Below are positions 1,273 to 52,319 of a stretch of DNA of 64,000 nt, one piece after another. Below the pieces are notes generated by a model that saw only the letters and a program-made list of their open reading frames with translations, made no database searches and was not told the origin of the DNA. Source of the stretch: a virus. Location: positions 1-64,000 of the IMG/VR virus record IMGVR_UViG_3300045988_073620; one strand, written 5' to 3'. Made by a program: the position numbers and the translations under genes. How positions within the stretch are numbered: position 1 is the stretch's first letter; each line of letters opens with the position of its first letter.

Positions 1273-1570
1273 CTCTCTTTTCCGTTACTGAAAACTTATA
1301 AAAAGTTATAAACTTCTATGTTTCATTCCTACTTCAACGAGTATGCTTTTGATGATATAAATATCAATCTACTCACAAGTTCTTGTACTCTCCATAGGCG
1401 TAAATTCCGGACTAACGTATCCGTACATATTTGCATTAACGTTTCAGTGTCAGCTTGCAAATTTTTCTCCATAAGTCTTGAGATTTATAGATGCCTGGAA
1501 ATATATTCCACTCTAATATCTTATAAAACTCAACATACGCTTATATGATTTTATAATTTATATTTAACTG

Positions 1571-5644: not shown

Positions 5645-6225
5645 AAATAGCCCTCCCTGTTTGAAAACTACCGCCTACAGTAAAGTATATGCTCAGCTTG
5701 TGGGAAATAGAACCGAACATTAGTTCGTTTTTGCTATTATACCACCTATGTTTCCCCTTGGCAACTGCCAAATATACACATGGGATTTTGTTATTTCATA
5801 GGCAAACTTCGCAACTTCAAAGAAAATTCTGCTTTCGCGAATACAGCATCTGGCATTGCAAATTTCCTTGATTTCACTCATTTCCTGCGTCTGGGCGAAA
5901 TGAATTTGTTCCGCAGCTTCATTTGTGATCTGTGCATCTCTGTGGCGGTGTTCCGCTATATCATGTGACGGTATATGCACTGCGCAGAATATTTCGTAAA
6001 ATATCAAGATGAGTACGACTATCCTATATCTGTTCTTCTCCATTATTACCAACTCTTTCTAAAAATATATCACGCATTATAGCACAAACTTGTGTAGTTT
6101 TTCCGGGAAGTGCAAAATCATGGAGTTTTTCTGCAAAAACAATCTGTTTTTTTTGATATTTTACTATGCACAGTTTGTATGAAGTGGTATAATATTGTAA
6201 AAATTTTATAAGAGAGGGCAAAATT

Positions 6226-41730: not shown

Positions 41731-42210
41731 TCACTCCTTTATGTCTATTCCTCTTCCAGCTTTGTAACAATCTGCTATATATGTTCTATGTACATCTTCC
41801 ATAGGCTGACAATCTTTTTTATCAAGTAATGTGGCCTTTGCGTTATAAATTGTCTTAATCCTATCAGATTCGAGATAAAATTCACTATGAAATTTAGTTT
41901 TGCAGTTCATGCAAATCCATTCTGCGTCAGTTCTCAAGCCTGCAGCATCTACATCACCGCAAAAGAAATCCACTCCTGTATTGATTACTACTCCTCCGCA
42001 AAACGGACATTTACGTTTGTCTCGTAACGATAAATTATTTTCCATAATTTTATTTTTCTTGCCCTTCCTGTGCTTTATTTGACACTCGATCATCTTTGCT
42101 ACATTCTCACGTTCCTGTTTTATTCCATGCCCCTGACGAAATAACTCGCATTCGAGAATATTTCCACATCTGGAACATTCGTCTTTGATTTCTTTGCCGA
42201 ATACTTTCAT
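41731..42210 (-). CDS. zinc-ribbon-containing hypothetical protein
   Basis: CxxC pairs: CSRCG, CPFCGG and CMNCK. Confidence 0.55.
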   Translation of the reverse strand: MKVFGKEIKDECSRCGNILECELFRQGHGIKQERENVAKMIECQIKHRKGKKNKIMENNLSLRDKRKCPFCGGVVINTGVDFFCGDVDAAGLRTDAEWICMNCKTKFHSEFYLESDRIKTIYNAKATLLDKKDCQPMEDVHRTYIADCYKAGRGIDIKE

Positions 42211-42572
42211 TCCACATCTCCGTATATCAGCAGTTTAATAATTTGCTCTTCTGTAATTTCCTTCGCATTGATTCCAAGCCATAAATCTTTATATTGCAAA
42301 GAATTATATAGTTCATTAATTCTACTTATCCGCATTTCAAACGGTTTGTCACTTTGTAAGAAATAACTAGCTGCACCACGAAGTGTTTTTGTTCTATGAG
42401 GTGAATTAATAATAAAAATCCCTACAGTACATGTTTCCGTTTCCAAAATAAACGTTTTCCTATTGAACTGCACTATCGGTGTTTTGCTATGTATTTTATT
42501 AAATAATTTTATTAGAAAATAATCTGCATCTTTATAATCAACCGCCACGTACAACGCTGATATTTTACTCAT
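42207..42572 (-). CDS. hypothetical protein
   Basis: Start at MSKISALYV behind GGGAGGGTG. The longer track ORF runs through tRNA sequences. Confidence 0.55.
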   Translation of the reverse strand: MSKISALYVAVDYKDADYFLIKLFNKIHSKTPIVQFNRKTFILETETCTVGIFIINSPHRTKTLRGAASYFLQSDKPFEMRISRINELYNSLQYKDLWLGINAKEITEEQIIKLLIYGDVE

Positions 42573-42708
42573 TTTCAACACCCTCCCAGTATTTACAACA
42601 ATCGTCCAGACATCTAAAGTCTGCACAATGTTCACTGTCACCATTACAGCAGACGCCTTCTTCCAGTTCGTACCATTTGCATGTGCAAAAATAATCTTTT
42701 CTTTCCAT
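42565..42708 (-). CDS. Cys-rich 47-aa protein
   Basis: Hand translation gives MERKDYFCTCKWYELEEGVCCNGDSEHCADFRCLDDCCKYWEGVENE. Confidence 0.45.
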   Translation of the reverse strand: MERKDYFCTCKWYELEEGVCCNGDSEHCADFRCLDDCCKYWEGVENE

Positions 42709-42730
42709 ATTCTCTCATCAAAATAAAAAT

Positions 42731-42781
42731 TCCAGTACACGGACTCGAACCGTAACTTGCCACCCAACGTGGAGTACTGGA
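42731..42781 (-). ncRNA. 51-nt minimal tRNA-like element (acceptor + one hairpin + T-arm; no anticodon arm)
   Basis: Acceptor TCCAGTA/TACTGGA, hairpin CCAC-GTTGG-GTGG and T-arm TACGG-TTCGAGT-CCGTG. Confidence 0.5.
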
Positions 42782-42837
42782 AACCGAAGCAAGGTAAAAG
42801 AAAAAGAAATTTTTCCAATGATTGCAGTTCATTGGAA

Positions 42838-42909
42838 TCGGAATGGCAGGAATCGAACCTGCGACACATAGCTTACAATGCCATTACTCTACCACTGAGC
42901 TACATTCCA
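42838..42909 (-). tRNA. tRNA-Thr (UGU)
   Basis: Hand-folded cloverleaf: D arm GCTC-AGTGGTA-GAGT, anticodon arm ATGGC-ATTGTAA-GCTAT, T arm GCAGG-TTCGATT-CCTGC and a 7-bp acceptor. Confidence 0.85.
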
Positions 42910-42960: not shown

Positions 42961-44412
42961 TCATTCAACAGTGATACAATCGTATCTTTCTGAATTGATT
43001 GTGTTTTCCATGGCTTCAATTGGATTATATCCAAGATTCTGTAATACCTGTTTGAATACTGTTACCGACTGGCCACTTGCAAGCTGCACACCTTTTCTTG
43101 TAGCATCTGCATGAAATACATCATGTCTGCTGTCGACATTCCAGAAAATTATATTCGGAATAACATATCCGGCTTTTCGGAATTTCTTTTCCATTTTGTC
43201 ATAGAAAGACCAGTCCTTATTTCCGCTATAATCAATCTCCATATCAGAGATAACAACTATAGCTTTCGGCATTTCTTCCTGTGAAACGTTATTCTTCTCA
43301 GCAATATCGAGCACTTTCTCAAATGCAGCTTTAAGGTTTGTGCTACCGCCCCAATTTGCTTTTGCAGTATTGATTATTTTCTGGTGAAGTGTTTCGCCCT
43401 TTAATGTGACAATCTGTGGATTGCTAGAGAATGTCATAAACAAGTTATGATATGCACCCGTATTTCTCTCAGCAAAATATATCGCCAATCCGATTGATGT
43501 TGCCATTGGTCTTCCATACATTGAACCGGATACATCAGCCATAATCAAAGCGTTTGTTCCCTGTTTAACATAATCTGGAAGTGCTTTCCATTGTGCTTCA
43601 AGAACTTTGTTACTTTCTCTTCCATTAAGGATTTTCTCTACAATATCGTACGGATACAAGGTTGATGCATTGATCTTAACTTCTCCTTTATCAGCTTTAT
43701 TAATAAATTCACTAAATCCATCAGGATCATGTTTTGCAAAAGCCTTGCGATAAATCATCATTGCACGGCTTGGAACTTCTGGATATTTAATCTCGTTCCA
43801 CTTACCTGCAGATATGAGACTTTCGACAACACCTATCTGCTTTCTCATGCTGCGAACGATTCTCTTGAAGTTGTAAACTGGATAGCCTAACTTCTGTGCA
43901 GTCAGGATTCCTAGTTTTCTAGTCTTTGCACTACTTGCGTCAGCAGTTTTAATCCATTTGGCAAGCAGAGAAATTGCTTTGCCATCATTGAGATTCTTCA
44001 GATCTTCCTCGAATTGATTTTTCATGGTTTTCCACATATCATCTTCCAGTGGTGTTCCAATCAATTCATAAAGATCATCGTATCTTCCAAACACTCCAAT
44101 CAAATCAAGGTTCGGCCTGAGTGCTTCTGGATGGTGTTCCGCCATATAACGAATAATGGTTCGGAAAGTTTTTCTTTCTCCTAATCCCTCTCGAATATCT
44201 CTTGCGTAAAAAGCAATCTTCGTAGCAAAGAGTTTATCCTGCGCATATGCTTCTGAGAACAATGTAGTGGTTCTATTCTCATCAGCATCTCTTAATGCAC
44301 CAATAGTTCCGAATAGATCAAGCCTTGCGTCACTTGTGGTATTCAGCGCAACTGCGCCATTCTCGGTTCTTGTAAACTTACTTTCTTCTTTCATTGCATT
44401 TGCAAAATCCAT
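42961..44412 (-). CDS. DUF2828-like protein: helical N-terminal region + C-terminal vWA domain with MIDAS motif
   Basis: 483 aa. The C-terminal half carries ...ALIMADVSGSMYG... (DxSxS) and ...GGSTNL.... Family assignment is from memory. Confidence 0.7.
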   Translation of the reverse strand: MDFANAMKEESKFTRTENGAVALNTTSDARLDLFGTIGALRDADENRTTTLFSEAYAQDKLFATKIAFYARDIREGLGERKTFRTIIRYMAEHHPEALRPNLDLIGVFGRYDDLYELIGTPLEDDMWKTMKNQFEEDLKNLNDGKAISLLAKWIKTADASSAKTRKLGILTAQKLGYPVYNFKRIVRSMRKQIGVVESLISAGKWNEIKYPEVPSRAMMIYRKAFAKHDPDGFSEFINKADKGEVKINASTLYPYDIVEKILNGRESNKVLEAQWKALPDYVKQGTNALIMADVSGSMYGRPMATSIGLAIYFAERNTGAYHNLFMTFSSNPQIVTLKGETLHQKIINTAKANWGGSTNLKAAFEKVLDIAEKNNVSQEEMPKAIVVISDMEIDYSGNKDWSFYDKMEKKFRKAGYVIPNIIFWNVDSRHDVFHADATRKGVQLASGQSVTVFKQVLQNLGYNPIEAMENTINSERYDCITVE

Positions 44413-44566
44413 GTTTTTCTCCTTTCAGGACACAAAATATAAAATACACGCCTAAGATTTTATTTAAGAATGAGTTGCTGTAAGTGTCCCATATTTTTCT
44501 TCATGATGCTTTTGGTTTTCATAATTAACAGTTATGTCCAAATGAATTGCTGTAAGCATCACATAA

Positions 44567-44657
44567 TTGCCCCAACAGGATTTGAACCTATAAAATTATT
44601 TGCAGTAAAGAACACAGACATGTTCCGTCGGTTTCCCACAACCGACAAACTGGGGCA
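44567..44657 (-). ncRNA. 91-nt non-canonical tRNA-like RNA
   Basis: Perfect 7-bp acceptor TGCCCCA/TGGGGCA and T-arm ATAGG-TTCAAAT-CCTGT. The core has hairpins GTCGGTT-N6-AACCGAC and GAACA-TGTCTG-TGTTC (6-nt loop) but no standard anticodon arm. Confidence 0.5.
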
Positions 44658-44658
44658 G

Positions 44659-44773
44659 TGGCAAGGGGTGGACTCGAACCACCGACAAGTACCTTGTAAT
44701 GGAAAGAATTGCTGTAGAAGTCACGAACATGACTTACAATCTTTTACTGCTCTACCAACTGAGCTACCTTGCC
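44659..44773 (-). ncRNA. 115-nt tRNA-like RNA with the anticodon arm replaced by a long irregular helix (or an intron-containing tRNA)
   Basis: Acceptor GGCAAGG/CCTTGCC, D arm GCTC-AGTTGGTA-GAGC and T arm GGTGG-TTCGAGT-CCACC are canonical. There are 65 nt between the D and T arms. Confidence 0.55.
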
Positions 44774-44896: not shown

Positions 44897-44965
44897 TCGG
44901 AAAGGATGGATTCGAACCATCAAGACCTAGTCGACTAGCCCGTTCCCAGTTACTTGCACTTTCCG
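44897..44965 (-). ncRNA. 69-nt degenerate tRNA-like element
   Basis: Acceptor CGGAAAG/CTTTCCG and T-arm GATGG-TTCGAAT-CCATC. The core is about 5 nt short and contains only the palindrome CTAGTCGACTAG. Confidence 0.4.
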
Positions 44966-45291
44966 AATAACCCGGAAGCCCCGGGTTAGCAATATGTTTA
45001 TCGTGTTATGCTTTCCACTAGGCTGTTTTATACCGTGCCAGCCCCACGGAGTTGTTTCGGATATTTATGCCCTATAGGTGATATAGAGCGAACCTTGTAC
45101 GGACTCCTGCATTCCTTAAAACTCCTAGATTCGTCAACCCATTAAACTCCGGAATGCCACCAGATAAAGTGAAGTCGTAGCGCGTAACTCGTTGCCGTAT
45201 CACCCGGTTATCGCAGTCCTTTCGATTCTCAATTATCTGGTAAAAATTTTTCCATCCAAGATAACGGCTCAGATGGCATTTGATGGAGAAA

Positions 45292-45365: not shown

Positions 45366-45471
45366 TAAGTAGAGGCGTTATTAGGCAACTCAAGAGCAAC
45401 GTTCCTCTACTGTTACGGTTCATACCCTCACAGCCGTAACAAAGGGTCTGATTGTTCTGCGCCATGCAGAA

Positions 45472-45524
45472 TACCATCCGGGGCATTTGAAGCCCCTTTG
45501 ATCATCCCCGTTGGGATAGATGGA
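45472..45524 (-). ncRNA. 53-nt minimal tRNA-like element
   Basis: Acceptor TCCATCT/GGATGGT (6 of 7 pairs), hairpin ATCCC-AACG-GGGAT and T-arm GGGGC-TTCAAAT-GCCCC. Confidence 0.4.
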
Positions 45525-45570
45525 ACCAATTCGGAGGGGAACTATATCATGGCTAAACAATATAGTCCGA

Positions 45571-47919: not shown

Positions 47920-49089
47920 TTATTTTCTCGGCCTCCCAGATGTCATTTTGGGTAATTCTAACGCTTCCTGAATTGGCATCATTTTTTTATAATACCGGTA
48001 ATTAAATGATTCTACAGAAATTCCATGTGACTTACATAGGTCAGATTTTGGTATTAAATTTCCATTGTATAAAATCAACGCTGTTTTCTTTTTATTCTTT
48101 TTGTTTTCCCGTTTCTTCCATTCAGATGGTGGCCTTTTATTCTTTTGCTGTTCCGCAATGGTTATCCACCTACAGTTATCTGGTTCATAATTCCCATTTA
48201 CGTCTATTCGGTCAATAGTGCATTCTCCAAACAGAGCGTCTTCATCATATCCGTGCTTATAAGCCCAACTTTTAAATGTGGAATAATCTTCCCATTCATT
48301 ACAGACTCTTATTCCGCGGCCGCCATAATTACGGTATTCTCTACAATTTAGATAATTGCATCTTCGTTTCATATTTTGCCACACATGATATAATCGGTCA
48401 TTACTTCCACCATGTGTTCTAATAAGTTCATCATGGTAACATCCACAACTTTTGGTTTTTCCTGTAACTAATTCAATAGGCCTTACGTTCTTAATATTTC
48501 CACAATCACATCGGCACATAAATCTTCTTACTGTACCGGGTTTATTTATCCCGATAACGGTAAGAAATCCAAAACGTTTTCCGATATATGTATTGTCATA
48601 TTTAATATTGGGAAAATGCTTATGACATTTTTGATCTTTCCATTTTTCTGCATGTAGCATACTGTAAGAAACATCTTTAAATGCTCCACATTCCATGCAG
48701 GTCATACGAATTTTAATAGGATTTTGATCAATTATTTCTGAAGCTATATAATCTCCATGTTGTTTCCCTATTTCGGATTCGAGTAAGTCTTTTTTTATTT
48801 TTCGAGATTTTTTAAGCTCTGCATTTCGTCTTTCTTTTCGGCATTTATAGCATGTTTTTATAAGCTCATTCCATTTATTTCTGCCGTTTATCATTTCGCG
48901 CTGAATTGTATCGCCGCACGCAACACATTTAAGCTTAATTATTCTGGATTTTGTATGTGGATTGTATGAAATATCAATAATTTTATAGTCCCCATTTTCT
49001 GTGCCGATACGCTTTTGATAACATTCAATCATCATGGATGCGGTTTCTTTTCCTATTCCGTATGAAACTAACTCCTCTACGCTGTTCAT
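47920..49089 (-). CDS. HNH-type homing endonuclease-like protein with zinc-ribbon / CxCDCG modules
   Basis: Contains ...FMCRCDCGNIKNV... and ...TIDRIDVNGNYEPDNCRWITIAEQQKNK. Confidence 0.7.
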   Translation of the reverse strand: MNSVEELVSYGIGKETASMMIECYQKRIGTENGDYKIIDISYNPHTKSRIIKLKCVACGDTIQREMINGRNKWNELIKTCYKCRKERRNAELKKSRKIKKDLLESEIGKQHGDYIASEIIDQNPIKIRMTCMECGAFKDVSYSMLHAEKWKDQKCHKHFPNIKYDNTYIGKRFGFLTVIGINKPGTVRRFMCRCDCGNIKNVRPIELVTGKTKSCGCYHDELIRTHGGSNDRLYHVWQNMKRRCNYLNCREYRNYGGRGIRVCNEWEDYSTFKSWAYKHGYDEDALFGECTIDRIDVNGNYEPDNCRWITIAEQQKNKRPPSEWKKRENKKNKKKTALILYNGNLIPKSDLCKSHGISVESFNYRYYKKMMPIQEALELPKMTSGRPRK

Positions 49090-51345: not shown

Positions 51346-51867
51346 TCAACTCATTCTTTTTAAGATTTCTTCTTCGAATAGTTTTAATTCATGTTTCGCA
51401 TATATGTTATGCTTATATGTGTATATCAATTTATCATTCGGGAGCTTTAACATCTCATACACTTCATTTTTTCTTTTTAAGACCTTTTCTTGATTCTCTT
51501 TTATATGCTTCAATCTCCCATTAACTACGTTTATTGTTTCGCGATTGTATAAATTTTCACTGTTCAAAATCGCTTCTTTTATCATTCTGTATTCTTCCAG
51601 AAGCATTTTATTTCTCAACTCGTCAAAACTTGTGCAATCAGAACCATCAATTATTTTGACGATTTCAAAACGAAAATCACATCCTTTTATAGCATCTTCC
51701 AGCATGTCTTTGTTGCTATGATATTTTCGTAAAATACCATTCTTGTGTAGCCTAGCTCTTGCTAAAAGTTCAGATGAAGAACCAATATATTTCTTTCCAC
51801 TTTGTTGATTTGTGATTGTGTATATCCCTATGCCGTCTTTGACTGGAACGTTAAACAAATTGCTCAT
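51346..51867 (-). CDS. GIY-YIG nuclease domain protein
   Basis: Contains ...GIGIYTITNQQSGKKYIGSS...ARLHKN.... Confidence 0.7.
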   Translation of the reverse strand: MSNLFNVPVKDGIGIYTITNQQSGKKYIGSSSELLARARLHKNGILRKYHSNKDMLEDAIKGCDFRFEIVKIIDGSDCTSFDELRNKMLLEEYRMIKEAILNSENLYNRETINVVNGRLKHIKENQEKVLKRKNEVYEMLKLPNDKLIYTYKHNIYAKHELKLFEEEILKRMS

Positions 51868-51900
51868 TCCTGTAACCACTTCCTTTCTATGGTTACAGTA

Positions 51901-52319
51901 TATCATTTATTAAACTATGCGTCAAGTATTTTATTAAACTATTCTACTAATTTTTCATTCTTTCCAATTCTTTCTGTATACACTCCAGAACGAATGCAGA
52001 CATCTTGACGCCTTTTAGACCGGCTGCTCTTTTTACGTCTTCCTTGGTTCCCTTTGGTGCCATTACTGTTATACGGTCGTACTTGTCTTTTTGATATTGT
52101 GCAATATATGAAAGTTCCTTTTCTTTCTCTTTAAATGCCATTCATTAATCCTCCTGTTATTGTTTGCTTTGATTATATCATTTATTAAACTATGCGTCAA
52201 TTGGCTATGGGTTTTTATTTCGATATTTTTTATTTCCTATTATATGTGCAGAAAAAACACTATTTTAAAAATAATATATTTTATTAAACTATGCTATTGA
52301 CACCATTATTAAACTATGC
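51901..52319. promoter_or_regulatory. five copies of TTATTAAACTATGC embedded in three consensus-like promoters
   Basis: Copies lie at 51907, 51931, 52182, 52281 and 52306. Minus-strand promoters are TTGACG-N17-TATACT and TTGACG-N17-TATAAT. The plus-strand promoter is TTGACA-N17-TAATAT. Confidence 0.7.
51947..52141 (-). CDS. ribbon-helix-helix (Arc/CopG-like) regulator
   Basis: Contains ...DRITVMAPKGTKEDVKRAAGLKGVKMSAFVLECIQKEL. Confidence 0.65.
   Translation of the reverse strand: MAFKEKEKELSYIAQYQKDKYDRITVMAPKGTKEDVKRAAGLKGVKMSAFVLECIQKELERMKN

What the first reader, a model, noticed from the sequence alone, without database searches (positions are those of the whole stretch)
44659..44773. 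115-nt tRNA-like RNA with canonical acceptor, D and T arms but a long irregular helix in place of the anticodon arm
The acceptor (GGCAAGG/CCTTGCC), D arm (GCTC-AGTTGGTA-GAGC) and T arm (GGTGG-TTCGAGT-CCACC) are textbook. However, 65 nt lie between the D and T arms instead of about 23.
- I could not place any 5-bp stem with a 7-nt loop there.
- Instead the segment forms stacked helices: GTA/TAC, TTGTAA/TTACAA and AAGTCA-TGTTCG-TGACTT.
- The string ATTGTAA equals the anticodon loop of the nearby tRNA-Thr, but its flanks do not pair.

Possible readings are an unusual intron-containing tRNA, a tRNA-derived decoy or Y-RNA-like molecule, or a scaffold bound by the adjacent vWA protein.
Basis: seen in the sequence. 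Interest (0 to 1): 0.7.

Follow-up and report, generated by a model that had tools for sequence, protein, structure and literature searches.

The report
tRNA with Ro60-like protein handle
This is a prophage tRNA-Val gene whose anticodon stem is split by a conserved 42-nt hairpin-plus-ACAGCAA module; the same module marks neighbouring small RNAs and almost always lies beside a gene for a Ro60-like RNA-binding protein, pointing to an undescribed Y-RNA-like particle built on a complete tRNA.

Summary
The 115-nt RNA is real. It lies on the minus strand at 44773..44659 (Rfam tRNA 49.4 bits; fold z -4.1). Across 73 distinct relatives the split stem, the other tRNA arms and the insert hairpin covary (93.8% paired against 41-50% in slid controls).

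The insert is a hairpin (NNNUCA-UGNNNG-UGANNN), two nucleotides, then single-stranded ACAGCAA. The same motif sits in about 62-nt stem-closed small RNAs; two lie between this tRNA and the next gene.

That gene (DUF2828 + vWA/MIDAS) models confidently (pLDDT 93.6), and its 12 best PDB matches are Ro60/TROVE proteins. Motif-bearing RNAs flank this gene family down to 44% protein identity: 61/61 and 39/42 loci, about 3-5 sense copies per kb against about 0 antisense. Conversely, 106 of 108 module-bearing viral contigs have the gene downstream.

Best reading: a tRNA/Y-RNA chimera in which the insert docks the Ro60-like protein and the tRNA body is the effector. Binding is inferred, not shown. An excised, non-canonical intron is not excluded. 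It is a new variant of the Ro60/Y-RNA kind.

The parts
44659..44773 (-). 115-nt tRNA-Val(UAC)-like RNA with a 42-nt insert. Acceptor 44773-44767 / 44666-44660; D arm 44764-44749; T arm 44683-44667; variable loop UUGUC 44688-44684; discriminator A at 44659. No CCA is encoded.
   Evidence: Rfam RF00005 49.4 bits. Model R1 scores 135.9 bits. All arms covary in 73 distinct relatives.
44745..44747 (-). 5' strand of the upper anticodon stem, G27-U28-A29. It pairs with U41-A42-C43 (44691-44689).
   Evidence: Helix 3: 88% paired, with pair types CG, GC, AU and UA all present. The relatives use GUA/UAC, AUG/CAU and CG/CG.
44703..44744 (-). 42-nt insert between tRNA positions 29 and 30: A-rich 5' linker, hairpin, ACAGCAA, U-rich 3' linker. 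The closing helix AAAGA (44744-44740) / UCUUU (44707-44703) is only moderately supported.
   Evidence: It is the unique deletion that restores a canonical arm. Closing helix 74% paired. No insert-free allele exists in viral contigs.
44718..44735 (-). Insert hairpin AAGUCA-UGUUCG-UGACUU. Family consensus NNNUCA-UGNNNG-UGANNN.
   Evidence: Helix 5: 98.2% paired. The outer three pairs covary (AU/GC/UA/CG) and the inner UCA/UGA is invariant.
44709..44715 (-). Conserved single-stranded motif ACAGCAA, two nucleotides 3' of the hairpin.
   Evidence: Invariant in alignment A1. 424 sense against 100 antisense copies in the loci, with 88% against 21% in structured contexts. The 5' linkers in relatives are A-rich and cannot pair with it.
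44689..44702 (-). Remainder of the anticodon arm: C30-C31, loop AUUACAA (anticodon UAC at 44698-44696), G39-G40, U41-A42-C43.
   Evidence: Helix 6 is 91.5% paired. The loop is invariant across groups A and B apart from two variants.
44568..44656 (-). Second tRNA-like RNA with the same module but a degenerate motif: acceptor GCCCCAG/UUGGGGC, a T arm, a 7-bp hairpin where the D arm would be, hairpin GGAACA-UGUCUG-UGUUCU, then UU-ACUGCAA. It has no anticodon loop.
   Evidence: Read from the sequence. Its counterpart in L079/L071 (position 2426) carries an intact ACAGCAA. The R1 model does not detect it.
44504..44561 (-). Small RNA 'b' (type S, 58 nt): 8-bp closing stem UGAUGCUU/AAGCAUCA, with ACAGCAA (44553-44547) directly after the 5' strand.
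   Evidence: Exact motif. Class statistics: 219 distinct elements, mean stem 8.1 bp against 5.2 bp when the downstream sequence is shuffled.
44428..44489 (-). Small RNA 'c' (type S, 62 nt): stem GGACAC/GUGUCC, then UU-ACAGCAA (44481-44475). Its 3' strand ends a few nt before the Shine-Dalgarno GGAG (44422-44419) and 15 nt before the ATG (44412).
   Evidence: In 44 of 81 distinct loci the last such element ends 13-16 nt before the start codon.
42961..44412 (-). Gene for the 483-aa Ro60-like protein: DUF2828 HEAT-repeat ring plus DUF7788 vWA domain with a complete MIDAS motif (D293, S295, S297, T358, D390).
   Evidence: Pfam. PHROG 850 'RNA-binding protein'. AlphaFold2 pLDDT 93.6. Foldseek top 12 hits are all Ro60/TROVE. 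MIDAS invariants.

Best explanation
The RNA is a chimera of a tRNA and a Y-like RNA. A complete tRNA-Val(UAC) body carries, as a side branch on the 5' strand of its anticodon stem, a docking module made of a hairpin, two nucleotides and single-stranded ACAGCAA.

Proposed mechanism, with the status of each step:
1. The RNA is transcribed with the neighbouring tRNA-like and small RNAs and with the DUF2828 mRNA. Inferred: they share a strand, and there is no terminator-like site between the hairpins at 45276..45252 and 42837..42813.
2. The tRNA body lets host tRNA enzymes cut out and stabilise the 115-nt RNA. Inferred by analogy with YrlA.
3. The insert folds as a three-way junction on the anticodon stem. 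Shown by covariation.
4. The phage's Ro60-like ring protein binds the hairpin/ACAGCAA module. The same module sits in the stem-closed small RNAs, and there the helix is closed by the RNA termini instead of a loop. Inferred from genetic linkage and the Ro60/Y-RNA precedent.
5. The tRNA body, with its free acceptor end and a real Val anticodon loop, acts as the effector. It would tether the protein to, or compete for, tRNA-binding factors such as ValRS, processing or repair enzymes, or host anticodon nucleases. Speculative.
6. The small RNA that abuts the ribosome-binding site may let the protein repress its own translation. Speculative.
For: - tRNA identity and the split arm.
- Covariation of every helix, including the split anticodon stem and the insert hairpin, in 73 distinct sequences: 93.8% of cells paired against 41-50% in slid controls; 29 of 32 pairs show changes on both sides.
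- The same module occurs outside tRNAs (219 distinct small RNAs) and in tRNA-like scaffolds with no anticodon loop.
- Ro60 fold: pLDDT 93.6, pTM 0.92. The top 12 PDB matches are all Ro60/TROVE over the full length, E 2e-7 to 3e-5, TM 0.42-0.63. The MIDAS motif is invariant. PHROG 850 is labelled 'RNA-binding protein'. A relative is named 'TROVE domain-containing protein' by UniRef.
- Linkage: 61/61 loci in the window clade and 39/42 Lachnospiraceae prophage loci have at least one sense motif within 600 nt upstream. Densities are 4.97 and 2.70 copies per kb, against 0-0.04 antisense and 0.06 expected by chance. Arrays of 5-10 copies are seen at about 50% protein identity.
- Reciprocal linkage: 106 of the 108 module-bearing viral contigs that have room carry the gene 204-990 nt downstream on the same strand.
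- No insert-free allele in 2.9 million viral contigs.
- Precedent: Y RNAs are encoded beside Ro60 genes in more than 250 bacteria and phages and contain tRNA-like domains (PMC4201824). Phage phiLo has two Y-like RNAs upstream of its Ro60 gene, and they bind the protein (PMC12135203).
Against: - No binding, expression or size data exist. The protein-RNA interaction rests on co-location and analogy only.
- The anticodon arm of this copy is perfectly canonical. It is conserved between two groups whose upper stems differ by compensatory changes. A pure scaffold would not obviously need that, whereas a decoding tRNA would.
- The covariation alignment was fitted to the model's structure, so it leans toward that structure.
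- The protein is not a sequence-level member of Pfam TROVE.
- The DUF2828 clade at about 30% identity (L082-L122), many from giant-virus MAGs, shows no such RNA array.
- The motif bears no resemblance to known Ro60-binding helices.
Confidence: 0.55

Rival explanations
1. It is an intron-containing pre-tRNA-Val. The 42-nt insert is excised and the halves are ligated to give a normal 73-nt decoding tRNA. The hairpin/ACAGCAA module would be the recognition signal for the excision machinery. That machinery might include the Ro60-like protein as chaperone or adaptor, with host nucleases and an RtcB-type ligase.
For: - Removing the insert gives exactly one perfect solution with U33 and A37.
- ARAGORN then calls tRNA-Val at default settings.
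- Paralogues and relatives give Thr-GGU, Pro-UGG, Ile-GAU, Leu-UAG and Ala-UGC arms with the expected loop features.
- The split stem covaries.
- The window has no other tRNA-Val.
- Enigmatic tRNA introns have been reported in gut megaphages (PMC6784885).
Against: - At 40-51 nt the insert is far too small for a group I intron, and no Rfam intron or ribozyme model hits it.
- By inspection of the junction sequences, no bulge-helix-bulge motif can be drawn around the junctions.
- The junction position drifts from 27/28 to 31/32.
- Bacteria are not known to have a tRNA splicing endonuclease (my own knowledge). None of the 28 window ORFs I tested is an RNA ligase or splicing endonuclease.
- The same module occurs in about 62-nt small RNAs and in tRNA-like scaffolds that have no anticodon loop to restore.
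- 27 of 73 family members lack a 7-nt loop.
Confidence: 0.25
2. The ACAGCAA modules are mainly cis-acting signals in one polycistronic transcript. They would be operators through which the DUF2828 protein controls its own mRNA, or RNase processing marks. Under this reading the tRNA copy is incidental: a tRNA gene that has acquired an operator and is on its way to decay.
For: - All elements are on the gene's strand and directly upstream.
- The last small RNA ends 13-16 nt before the start codon in 44 of 81 distinct loci.
- No terminator-like site separates the RNAs from the gene.
- Some family members have degenerate anticodon arms.
Against: - Arrays of up to 10 elements extend more than 1.5 kb upstream. 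In one clade they lie 1-1.5 kb downstream of the gene among tRNAs. Neither arrangement suits a simple leader operator.
- The tRNA body of this copy is fully canonical and covaries, so it is not decaying.
- Each small RNA has its own closing stem and a tight length mode near 62 nt, as expected for discrete processed RNAs.
Confidence: 0.12
3. It is a degenerate tRNA pseudogene with a chance insertion and has no function.
For: ARAGORN does not call it. One relative, L297, is clearly broken by recombination.
Against: - It is conserved in 75 of 80 close loci at 74-98% identity, and the family extends to prophages with 44-85% protein identity.
- Compensatory changes occur in every helix.
- The insert motif is invariant.
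Confidence: 0.02

Closest known systems
Bacterial and phage Ro60 (Rsr) with YrlA-type Y RNAs (Chen et al. 2014, PMC4201824; YrlA structure preprint, doi 10.1101/312249)
   Same: - A ring-shaped HEAT-repeat plus vWA/MIDAS protein is encoded directly beside its small RNAs.
- At least one RNA has tRNA-like acceptor, D and T arms.
- The protein-binding module is attached at the anticodon stem.
- Several RNAs occur per locus.
   Different: - The protein belongs to a separate sequence family (DUF2828/DUF7788, with no Pfam TROVE hit).
- The RNA does not reach the Rfam YrlA score.
- YrlA is a circularly permuted mimic: its ends lie in the Ro-binding stem, its acceptor stem is closed by a loop, and it has no free CCA end and no anticodon loop. 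This RNA keeps tRNA topology, with an open acceptor end, a discriminator base and a real 7-nt Val anticodon loop. The binding module is a capped side branch.
- The conserved motif (hairpin + ACAGCAA) is unrelated to the Y-RNA bulged helix.
Thermus phage phiLo Ro60 with Yrl1/Yrl2 (PMC12135203; PDB 9KOP, 9L5Y)
   Same: - It is a phage-encoded Ro60-fold protein, and it is the best Foldseek match to the model.
- Two Y-like RNAs lie immediately upstream of the gene.
   Different: - Yrl1 and Yrl2 are stem-bulge-stem RNAs identified by a CGAA motif and are not tRNA-embedded.
- Sequence identity to the window protein is only about 16%.
- Binding and a PNPase complex were shown experimentally for phiLo. 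Nothing has been shown here.
tRNA introns: archaeal/eukaryal bulge-helix-bulge introns (including non-canonical positions such as 29/30), bacterial group I introns in anticodon loops, and the 'enigmatic' Lak megaphage tRNA introns (PMC6784885)
   Same: A short sequence interrupts a tRNA gene in the anticodon arm, and its removal restores a canonical cloverleaf.
   Different: - No bulge-helix-bulge motif can be drawn.
- The insert is 5-10 times shorter than a group I intron, and no Rfam intron model hits it.
- It contains a conserved module that is shared with free-standing small RNAs and linked to a specific protein gene.
- I did not examine the Lak intron sequences.
Dictyostelium Class I RNAs (Rfam RF01414; PMC7919456)
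   Same: This applies to the neighbouring small RNAs, not to the tRNA. Both are about 60 nt. [quoted passage not shown] Both end ...C-UG at the 3' end.
   Different: - The Rfam model scores only 24.7 bits (gathering score 41.5) on one window element and nothing on the arrays in more distant loci.
- The kingdoms differ.
- The published direct binder of Class I RNA is an RRM protein (Rnp1A/CIBP).
- The resemblance may be coincidental.

Membership tests
tRNA (Rfam RF00005) | Score at or above the curated gathering score | tested here: met
   49.4 bits against a gathering score of 29, E 1.5e-7, model positions 1-71.
tRNA (Rfam RF00005) | Cloverleaf helices supported by covariation, plus tertiary-interaction nucleotides | tested here: met
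   Acceptor 99%, D 97%, T 100% and anticodon stem 88% / 91.5% paired, all with compensatory changes. U8, A14, G18-G19, G15:C48 and a UUCGAGU T loop are read directly from the sequence.
tRNA (Rfam RF00005) | Contiguous 5-bp anticodon stem and 7-nt loop, with a mature length of about 72-90 nt | tested here: not met
   The stem is interrupted by 42 nt between positions 29 and 30. ARAGORN does not call the native sequence and calls it only after virtual excision.
tRNA (Rfam RF00005) | Aminoacylation and decoding | not testable with these tools
   A35, C36 and A73 are present. These are the E. coli ValRS identity elements, from my own knowledge. No functional data exist.
YrlA / Y RNA-like (Rfam RF02553) | Score at or above the gathering score (69 bits) | tested here: not met
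   No YrlA hit on 44659-44773 at E <= 5. Elsewhere the model gives only 18-29 bits.
YrlA / Y RNA-like (Rfam RF02553) | Encoded adjacent to a Ro60-type gene | tested here: met
   The RNA lies 247 nt upstream of a gene whose product has the Ro60 fold. The linkage is general.
YrlA / Y RNA-like (Rfam RF02553) | tRNA-like D, T and acceptor elements | tested here: met
YrlA / Y RNA-like (Rfam RF02553) | The 5' and 3' ends form the Ro-binding stem, the acceptor stem is closed by a loop, and there is no anticodon loop | tested here: not met
   The ends lie in an open acceptor stem, a 7-nt anticodon loop is present, and the candidate binding module is a capped hairpin. The neighbouring small RNAs do have terminal stems.
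YrlA / Y RNA-like (Rfam RF02553) | Physical binding to the Ro60 protein | not testable with these tools
   Inferred from co-location only.
Ro60 / TROVE protein (adjacent gene) | HEAT-repeat ring plus vWA domain fold | tested here: met
   The top 12 Foldseek PDB matches are all Ro60/TROVE over about 500-585 aligned columns, probability 1.00.
Ro60 / TROVE protein (adjacent gene) | Sequence match to the Pfam TROVE family | tested here: not met
   At E <= 0.01, Pfam gives only DUF2828, DUF7788 and VWA families. A sequence-profile search of the PDB finds only one vWA domain.
Ro60 / TROVE protein (adjacent gene) | MIDAS motif in the vWA domain | tested here: met
   D293-x-S295-x-S297, T358 and D390 are invariant in 51 sequences at 36-57% identity.
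Archaeal/eukaryal BHB tRNA intron | Two 3-nt bulges separated by a 4-bp helix at the exon-intron junctions | tested here: not met
   By inspection: the intron nucleotides after the 5' junction (AAAGAUUG) cannot form the 4-bp helix with the first exon-2 nucleotides (CCAU). The covariation-supported structure is a three-way junction.
Archaeal/eukaryal BHB tRNA intron | A splicing endonuclease and a ligase are available | tested here: inconclusive
   None among the 28 window ORFs scanned. Small ORFs, the rest of the phage and the host were not examined.
Group I intron in tRNA | Match to Rfam RF00028 and a length of roughly 200 nt or more | tested here: not met
   No hit in the window. The insert is 42 nt (40-51 nt in relatives).
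Dictyostelium Class I RNA (RF01414) | Score at or above the gathering score (41.5 bits) | tested here: not met
   The tRNA itself gives no hit. Small RNA 'c' scores 24.7 bits. Arrays in L124, L125, L131 and L132 give nothing at E <= 1.
Dictyostelium Class I RNA (RF01414) | Terminal stem followed by the unpaired 11-nt motif CCUUACAGCAA, total length about 60 nt | tested here: inconclusive
   Small RNAs 'b' and 'c' have CUUACAGCAA after a 6-8 bp terminal stem and are 58 and 62 nt long. The tRNA insert has CUUCUACAGCAA after a local hairpin. This is a resemblance only.

The most novel reading that the evidence does not exclude
The insert is a conditional 'cage'. The tRNA-Val is held inactive, and bound by the Ro60-like protein, through a docking arm in its anticodon stem. 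It is released as a working tRNA only when the arm is cut out and the halves are rejoined, for example by a host nuclease plus an RtcB-type ligase. That would be protein-dependent tRNA splicing in a bacterial system, at non-canonical positions, with a Ro60-like particle as the gatekeeper.
Probability: 0.12. Interest if true: 0.92.

Novelty: new variant of a known kind. Interest (0 to 1): 0.78.

Why it matters
Ro60 and its Y RNAs are a conserved but still poorly understood RNA-surveillance particle, and it is unknown why bacterial Y RNAs mimic tRNA. If this reading is right, three things follow.

1. **A function for a very large 'unknown function' family.** DUF2828 has 6,652 clusters at 50% identity and occurs in phages, giant viruses and prophages of major gut Firmicutes. 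It would become a Ro60-like RNA-binding protein with an identified RNA ligand motif.

2. **An intermediate between tRNA and tRNA mimic.** The family runs from complete tRNAs with real anticodon loops and open acceptor ends, through copies with expanded loops, to scaffolds with no anticodon arm. That offers a route for how Y RNAs could arise from tRNAs. It also gives a concrete handle (ValRS, tRNA repair enzymes, anticodon nucleases) for asking what the tRNA-like domain is for.

3. **An experimentally reachable system.** Related prophages sit in cultured strains of Diplocloster hominis, Roseburia hominis and Fusicatenibacter saccharivorans.

It also warns annotators that these 100-130 nt genes are missed by ARAGORN.

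Tried and rejected
- **ARAGORN with relaxed thresholds** on all deletion variants was too permissive: 812 of 950 variants were called, with many different anticodons. I replaced it with a strict structural enumeration and a shuffle null.
- **MAFFT alignment A1** misaligned the D loop and positions 27-29 of one group. I therefore counted pairs on a model-fitted alignment instead, with the caveat that such an alignment leans toward the model's structure.
- **The minimum-free-energy pairing of GCAA (in the motif) with UUGU** is rejected, because relatives have A-rich linkers there.
- **Dictyostelium Class I membership** is rejected on score.
- **YrlA membership** is rejected on score and topology.
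- **Group I and bulge-helix-bulge introns** are rejected on size, model hits and junction sequence.
- **Sequence searches against the PDB**, with the single protein and with a profile, found only a generic vWA domain. The Ro60 relationship appeared only at the fold level.
- **The first homolog search** returned only relatives at 85% identity or more. Diversity came from the representative search.
- **The search for related loci with the 51-sequence alignment** failed for lack of a conserved stretch.
- **A giant-virus homolog as query**, used to look for eukaryotic (Dictyostelium) relatives, returned no informative organism names.
- **The DUF2828 clade at about 30% identity** shows no RNA array. 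Its single upstream ACAGCAA lies in what looks like a conserved coding sequence.
- **PADLOC** has no match to the protein.
- **The promoter scan** was uninformative: 7 sites found against 8.5 expected.
Full report
**1. The observation**

The feature is real and sits exactly at 44659-44773, on the minus strand.
- The Rfam tRNA model matches end to end at 49.4 bits (gathering score 29), with 53 nt skipped in the anticodon region.
- ARAGORN finds three ordinary tRNAs in the window (Thr, Met, Gln) but not this one.
- The RNA folds at -38 kcal/mol, z = -4.07 against dinucleotide shuffles.

**2. The anticodon arm is present but split**

On the minus strand the sequence reads ...GAGC-A-GUA | AAAGAUUGUAAGUCAUGUUCGUGACUUCUACAGCAAUUCUUU | CC-AUUACAA-GG-UAC-UUGUC-GGUGG...

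Looping out the 42 nt between tRNA positions 29 and 30 gives GUACC / AUUACAA / GGUAC. That is a 5-bp stem and a 7-nt loop with U33, anticodon UAC (Val) and A37, followed by a 5-nt variable loop.

I enumerated every single contiguous deletion that leaves a standard-length arm. This was the only perfect solution. Shuffled inserts give an all-Watson-Crick solution in 0.5% of trials. With the insert removed, ARAGORN at default settings calls tRNA-Val(tac).

The proposed UUGUAA/UUACAA helix is also wrong, because its 3' strand is the anticodon loop itself.

**3. Conservation and covariation**

- Using the downstream protein as an anchor, I fetched 80 related viral loci at 86-98% protein identity. 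The RNA is present in 75 of them at 74-98% identity and falls into four sequence groups.
- The groups reach the same architecture with different sequences:
  - upper anticodon stem GUA/UAC, AUG/CAU or CG/CG;
  - insert hairpin AAGUCA/UGACUU, UAGUCA/UGACUA, GGAUCA/UGAUCC or AGAUCA/UGAUCU.
- A covariance model with the split stem written in found 83 insert-bearing tRNAs, 73 of them distinct, across viral contigs and Lachnospiraceae prophages.
- On that alignment, 93.8% of cells are paired against 41-50% when partners are slid by 1-3 columns. 29 of 32 pairs show changes on both sides. No shuffle out of 500 reaches the observed values.
- Per helix, the paired fractions are:

| Helix | Cells paired |
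|---|---|
| Acceptor | 99% |
| D arm | 97% |
| T arm | 100% |
| Upper anticodon stem | 88% |
| Lower two pairs of the anticodon stem | 91.5% |
| Insert hairpin | 98% |
| Helix closing the insert | 74% |

The alignment was fitted to the model, so these figures lean toward it. The slid controls and the raw group comparison argue that the signal is genuine.

**4. Anatomy of the insert**

The family consensus has four parts:
- an A-rich 5' linker;
- a hairpin NNNUCA-UGNNNG-UGANNN;
- two nucleotides followed by ACAGCAA(U);
- a U-rich 3' linker.

The A-rich linkers cannot pair with ACAGCAA, so the motif is single-stranded.

The junction with the tRNA lies at different heights in different paralogues, from 27/28 to 31/32, but always on the 5' strand of the anticodon stem.

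**5. The same motif marks a second class of RNA**

In the window, exact CUUACAGCAA occurs only twice in 64 kb. Both copies lie between this tRNA and the next gene.

Each copy sits directly after the 5' strand of a stem whose 3' strand lies about 50 nt downstream:
- small RNA b, 44561..44504, with an 8-bp stem;
- small RNA c, 44489..44428, with a 6-bp stem.

Across all loci I found 219 distinct elements of this type. Their mean stem is 8.1 bp, against 5.2 bp when the downstream sequence is shuffled. Stems of 7 bp or more occur in 83%, against 16% in the shuffles. The modal length is about 62 nt.

Overall there are 424 sense-strand copies against 100 antisense. 88% of the sense copies lie in one of the two structured contexts, against 21% of the antisense copies.

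Topologically the two classes are permutations of one design: a helix whose strand runs 3' into ACAGCAA. In the small RNAs the far end of the helix is the RNA termini. In the tRNA it is capped by a loop, and the tRNA body takes the place of the variable region.

A further tRNA-like RNA lies at 44656..44568. It has acceptor and T arms, the hairpin and a degenerate ACUGCAA, but no anticodon loop. Its counterpart in other loci has an intact motif.

**6. The neighbouring protein is Ro60-like**

- The 483-aa product of 44412..42961 matches Pfam DUF2828 and DUF7788 (a vWA domain) and PHROG 850, 'RNA-binding protein'.
- The family is very large: 6,652 cluster representatives at 50% identity.
- An alignment of 51 members at 36-57% identity shows an invariant MIDAS motif.
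- AlphaFold2 on that alignment gives pLDDT 93.6 and pTM 0.92.
- The 12 best Foldseek matches in the PDB are all Ro60/TROVE proteins over the full length: Thermus phage phiLo, Xenopus Ro60 and Deinococcus Rsr.
- Sequence methods do not see this. Pfam TROVE is not hit, and a profile search of the PDB finds only a vWA domain.
- UniRef names a relative at about 30% identity 'TROVE domain-containing protein'.

**7. The gene and the RNAs travel together**

| Locus set | Loci with a sense motif within 600 nt upstream | Sense copies per kb | Antisense per kb |
|---|---|---|---|
| Window clade (86-98% identity) | 61 of 61 distinct loci | 4.97 | 0 |
| Lachnospiraceae prophages (44-85% identity) | 39 of 42 | 2.70 | 0.04 |

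The chance expectation is 0.06 per kb.

- Phages at about 50% protein identity carry arrays of 5-10 elements in which small RNAs alternate with insert-bearing tRNAs. In one subclade the elements lie 1-1.5 kb downstream, among tRNAs.
- In the reciprocal test, 117 viral contigs contain the exact module TCATGTTYGTGA-N5-ACAGCAA. Of these, 106 have the gene 204-990 nt downstream on the same strand, 9 run out of sequence, and 2 lack the gene. One of the two is recombination-broken. This pattern was derived from the window clade, so the test is partly circular.
- No insert-free allele of the tRNA exists in the viral collection.
- The clade at about 30% identity, many from giant-virus MAGs, does not show the arrays.

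**8. Genomic context**

- The window is a temperate siphovirus-type phage of Lachnospiraceae: GH25 endolysin, SPP1-type portal, terminase, integrases and an antirepressor.
- The RNA array and the gene sit between an HNH endonuclease gene and the packaging genes.
- Terminator-like hairpins follow tRNA-Met (45276..45252) and tRNA-Thr (42837..42813), with none in between. That suggests a single transcription unit.
- No RNA ligase or splicing endonuclease was found among the 28 ORFs tested.

**9. Interpretation**

The Ro60/Y-RNA precedent is close. Y RNAs are encoded beside Ro60 genes in more than 250 bacteria and phages and contain tRNA-like domains (PMC4201824). Phage phiLo has two Y-like RNAs upstream of its Ro60 gene, and they bind the protein (PMC12135203).

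I therefore read the insert as the docking module for the Ro60-like protein, and the tRNA body as the effector domain.

The RNA differs from YrlA in important ways (doi 10.1101/312249). YrlA is circularly permuted, has a closed acceptor stem and lacks an anticodon loop. This RNA keeps an open acceptor end, discriminator A73 and a canonical Val anticodon loop.

Across the family, 46 of 73 members have a 7-nt loop, and 36 of those have U33 with a purine at position 37. Others have expanded loops or none at all. That continuum argues that decoding is not the conserved function of the family. In this particular clade, however, the anticodon arm is clearly under selection. Either anticodon-dependent recognition matters (by ValRS, modification enzymes or anticodon nucleases), or the insert is removed.

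Binding, expression and the mature size are all inferred, not shown.

**10. Rivals**

An excised intron remains possible; I put it at about 0.25. It fits no known intron class:
- it is too short for a group I intron, and no Rfam intron or ribozyme model hits it;
- no bulge-helix-bulge motif can be drawn;
- the junction position drifts;
- the same module occurs where there is nothing to splice.

A purely cis-regulatory role fits the last small RNA, which ends 13-16 nt before the start codon in 44 of 81 distinct loci. It does not fit arrays that extend more than 1.5 kb from the gene.

**11. Novelty**

None of my eight literature searches turned up a paper that assigns a function to DUF2828, describes ACAGCAA-bearing RNAs, or describes tRNAs carrying a Ro60-type docking arm. 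'Enigmatic' tRNA introns in Lak megaphages are the nearest report (PMC6784885).

I class the finding as a new variant of the Ro60/Y-RNA kind: a new protein family, a new RNA motif and a new, non-permuted tRNA topology.

**12. A lead I could not test**

The small RNAs resemble Dictyostelium Class I RNAs in length, in the terminal stem, in the unpaired CCUUACAGCAA motif placed after the 5' strand, and in the 3' ...C-UG end (PMC7919456). Rfam scores are sub-threshold (24.7 bits against 41.5) or absent. I could not determine whether dictyostelids encode a DUF2828-type protein.

Noticed in passing
window 1326-1398 (-): A full-length RAGATH-18 RNA (Rfam RF03064, 76.1 bits against a gathering score of 44.9). 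This is a motif of unknown function, originally found near self-cleaving ribozymes. It is far from the tRNA array.
   Followed up: no
window 44897-44965 (-): Another tRNA-like gene just below the Rfam threshold (27.1 bits against 29). It has good acceptor and T arms, but a perfect palindrome CUAGUCGACUAG stands where the anticodon arm should be, so it has no anticodon loop. It carries no ACAGCAA motif.
   Followed up: partly
window 42730-42796 (-): Downstream of tRNA-Thr and a terminator-like hairpin lies a tRNA 'minihelix': stem UCCAGUAC/GUACUGGA enclosing a T-arm-like ACGG-UUCGAGU-CCGU. It gives a weak YrlA hit (18.2 bits). It overlaps the 5' part of the mechanical ORF 42207-42869, whose real start is probably further downstream.
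   Followed up: no
window 44428-44561 (-); loci L124, L125, L131, L132: The ~60-nt stem-closed small RNAs resemble Dictyostelium Class I RNAs: a terminal stem, then (C)CUUACAGCAA, with a 3' ...C-UG end. Only one element gets a sub-threshold Rfam score (24.7 bits). Whether this reflects homology, convergence on a shared protein-binding motif or chance is open.
   Followed up: partly
L013, L046, L057, L065 (about 2720-2840): In a subgroup of otherwise near-identical tRNAs, the anticodon loop is expanded to 9 nt (AUUCAAAAC or AUUCAAAAU). It contains UCA, the anticodon that would read UGA. This could be a degenerate loop or an unusual decoding or suppressor variant.
   Followed up: no
L001 2641-2755: One close relative has the loop AUAACAA (anticodon AAC) instead of AUUACAA (UAC). 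Both are valine anticodons. The change keeps A35 and C36.
   Followed up: no
L079/L072/L075 2117-2234: The positional counterpart of the window tRNA in a sister clade has anticodon GCU (a serine codon family) but a short 5-nt variable loop and discriminator C. It therefore lacks the long variable arm that bacterial SerRS requires. The same loci also carry a normal long-arm tRNA-Ser(GCU).
   Followed up: no
L255 about 6010-6170: The exact insert module also occurs in a scaffold with 9-bp acceptor-like and T arms but no D or anticodon arm, on a contig stretch with no DUF2828 gene within 8 kb downstream.
   Followed up: partly
L126 2278-2754: A group I intron-like match (44.7 bits, just under the gathering score of 50) and tmRNA-like fragments lie just upstream of a DUF2828 gene in a 131-kb gut phage contig.
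   Followed up: no
window 44970-45290 and 45370-45570 (-): Long non-coding spacers of about 200-320 nt lie between the tRNA genes of the array, with no Rfam match. A terminator-like hairpin follows tRNA-Met at 45276..45252. These may hold further structured RNAs.
   Followed up: no
L168 and L179, upstream of the DUF2828 gene: There are tandem DNA repeats between the last small RNA and the gene. L168 has about 12 copies of a ~14-nt AGAAGAGAAAGATT(C/T) unit. L179 has three copies of a ~40-nt unit.
   Followed up: no
window 47920-49089 (-) and 51346-51906 (-): An HNH endonuclease (PHROG 374) and a GIY-YIG (SegE-like) homing endonuclease are encoded near the RNA array. Both are DNA-acting families, and I found no link to the tRNA insert.
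   Followed up: no
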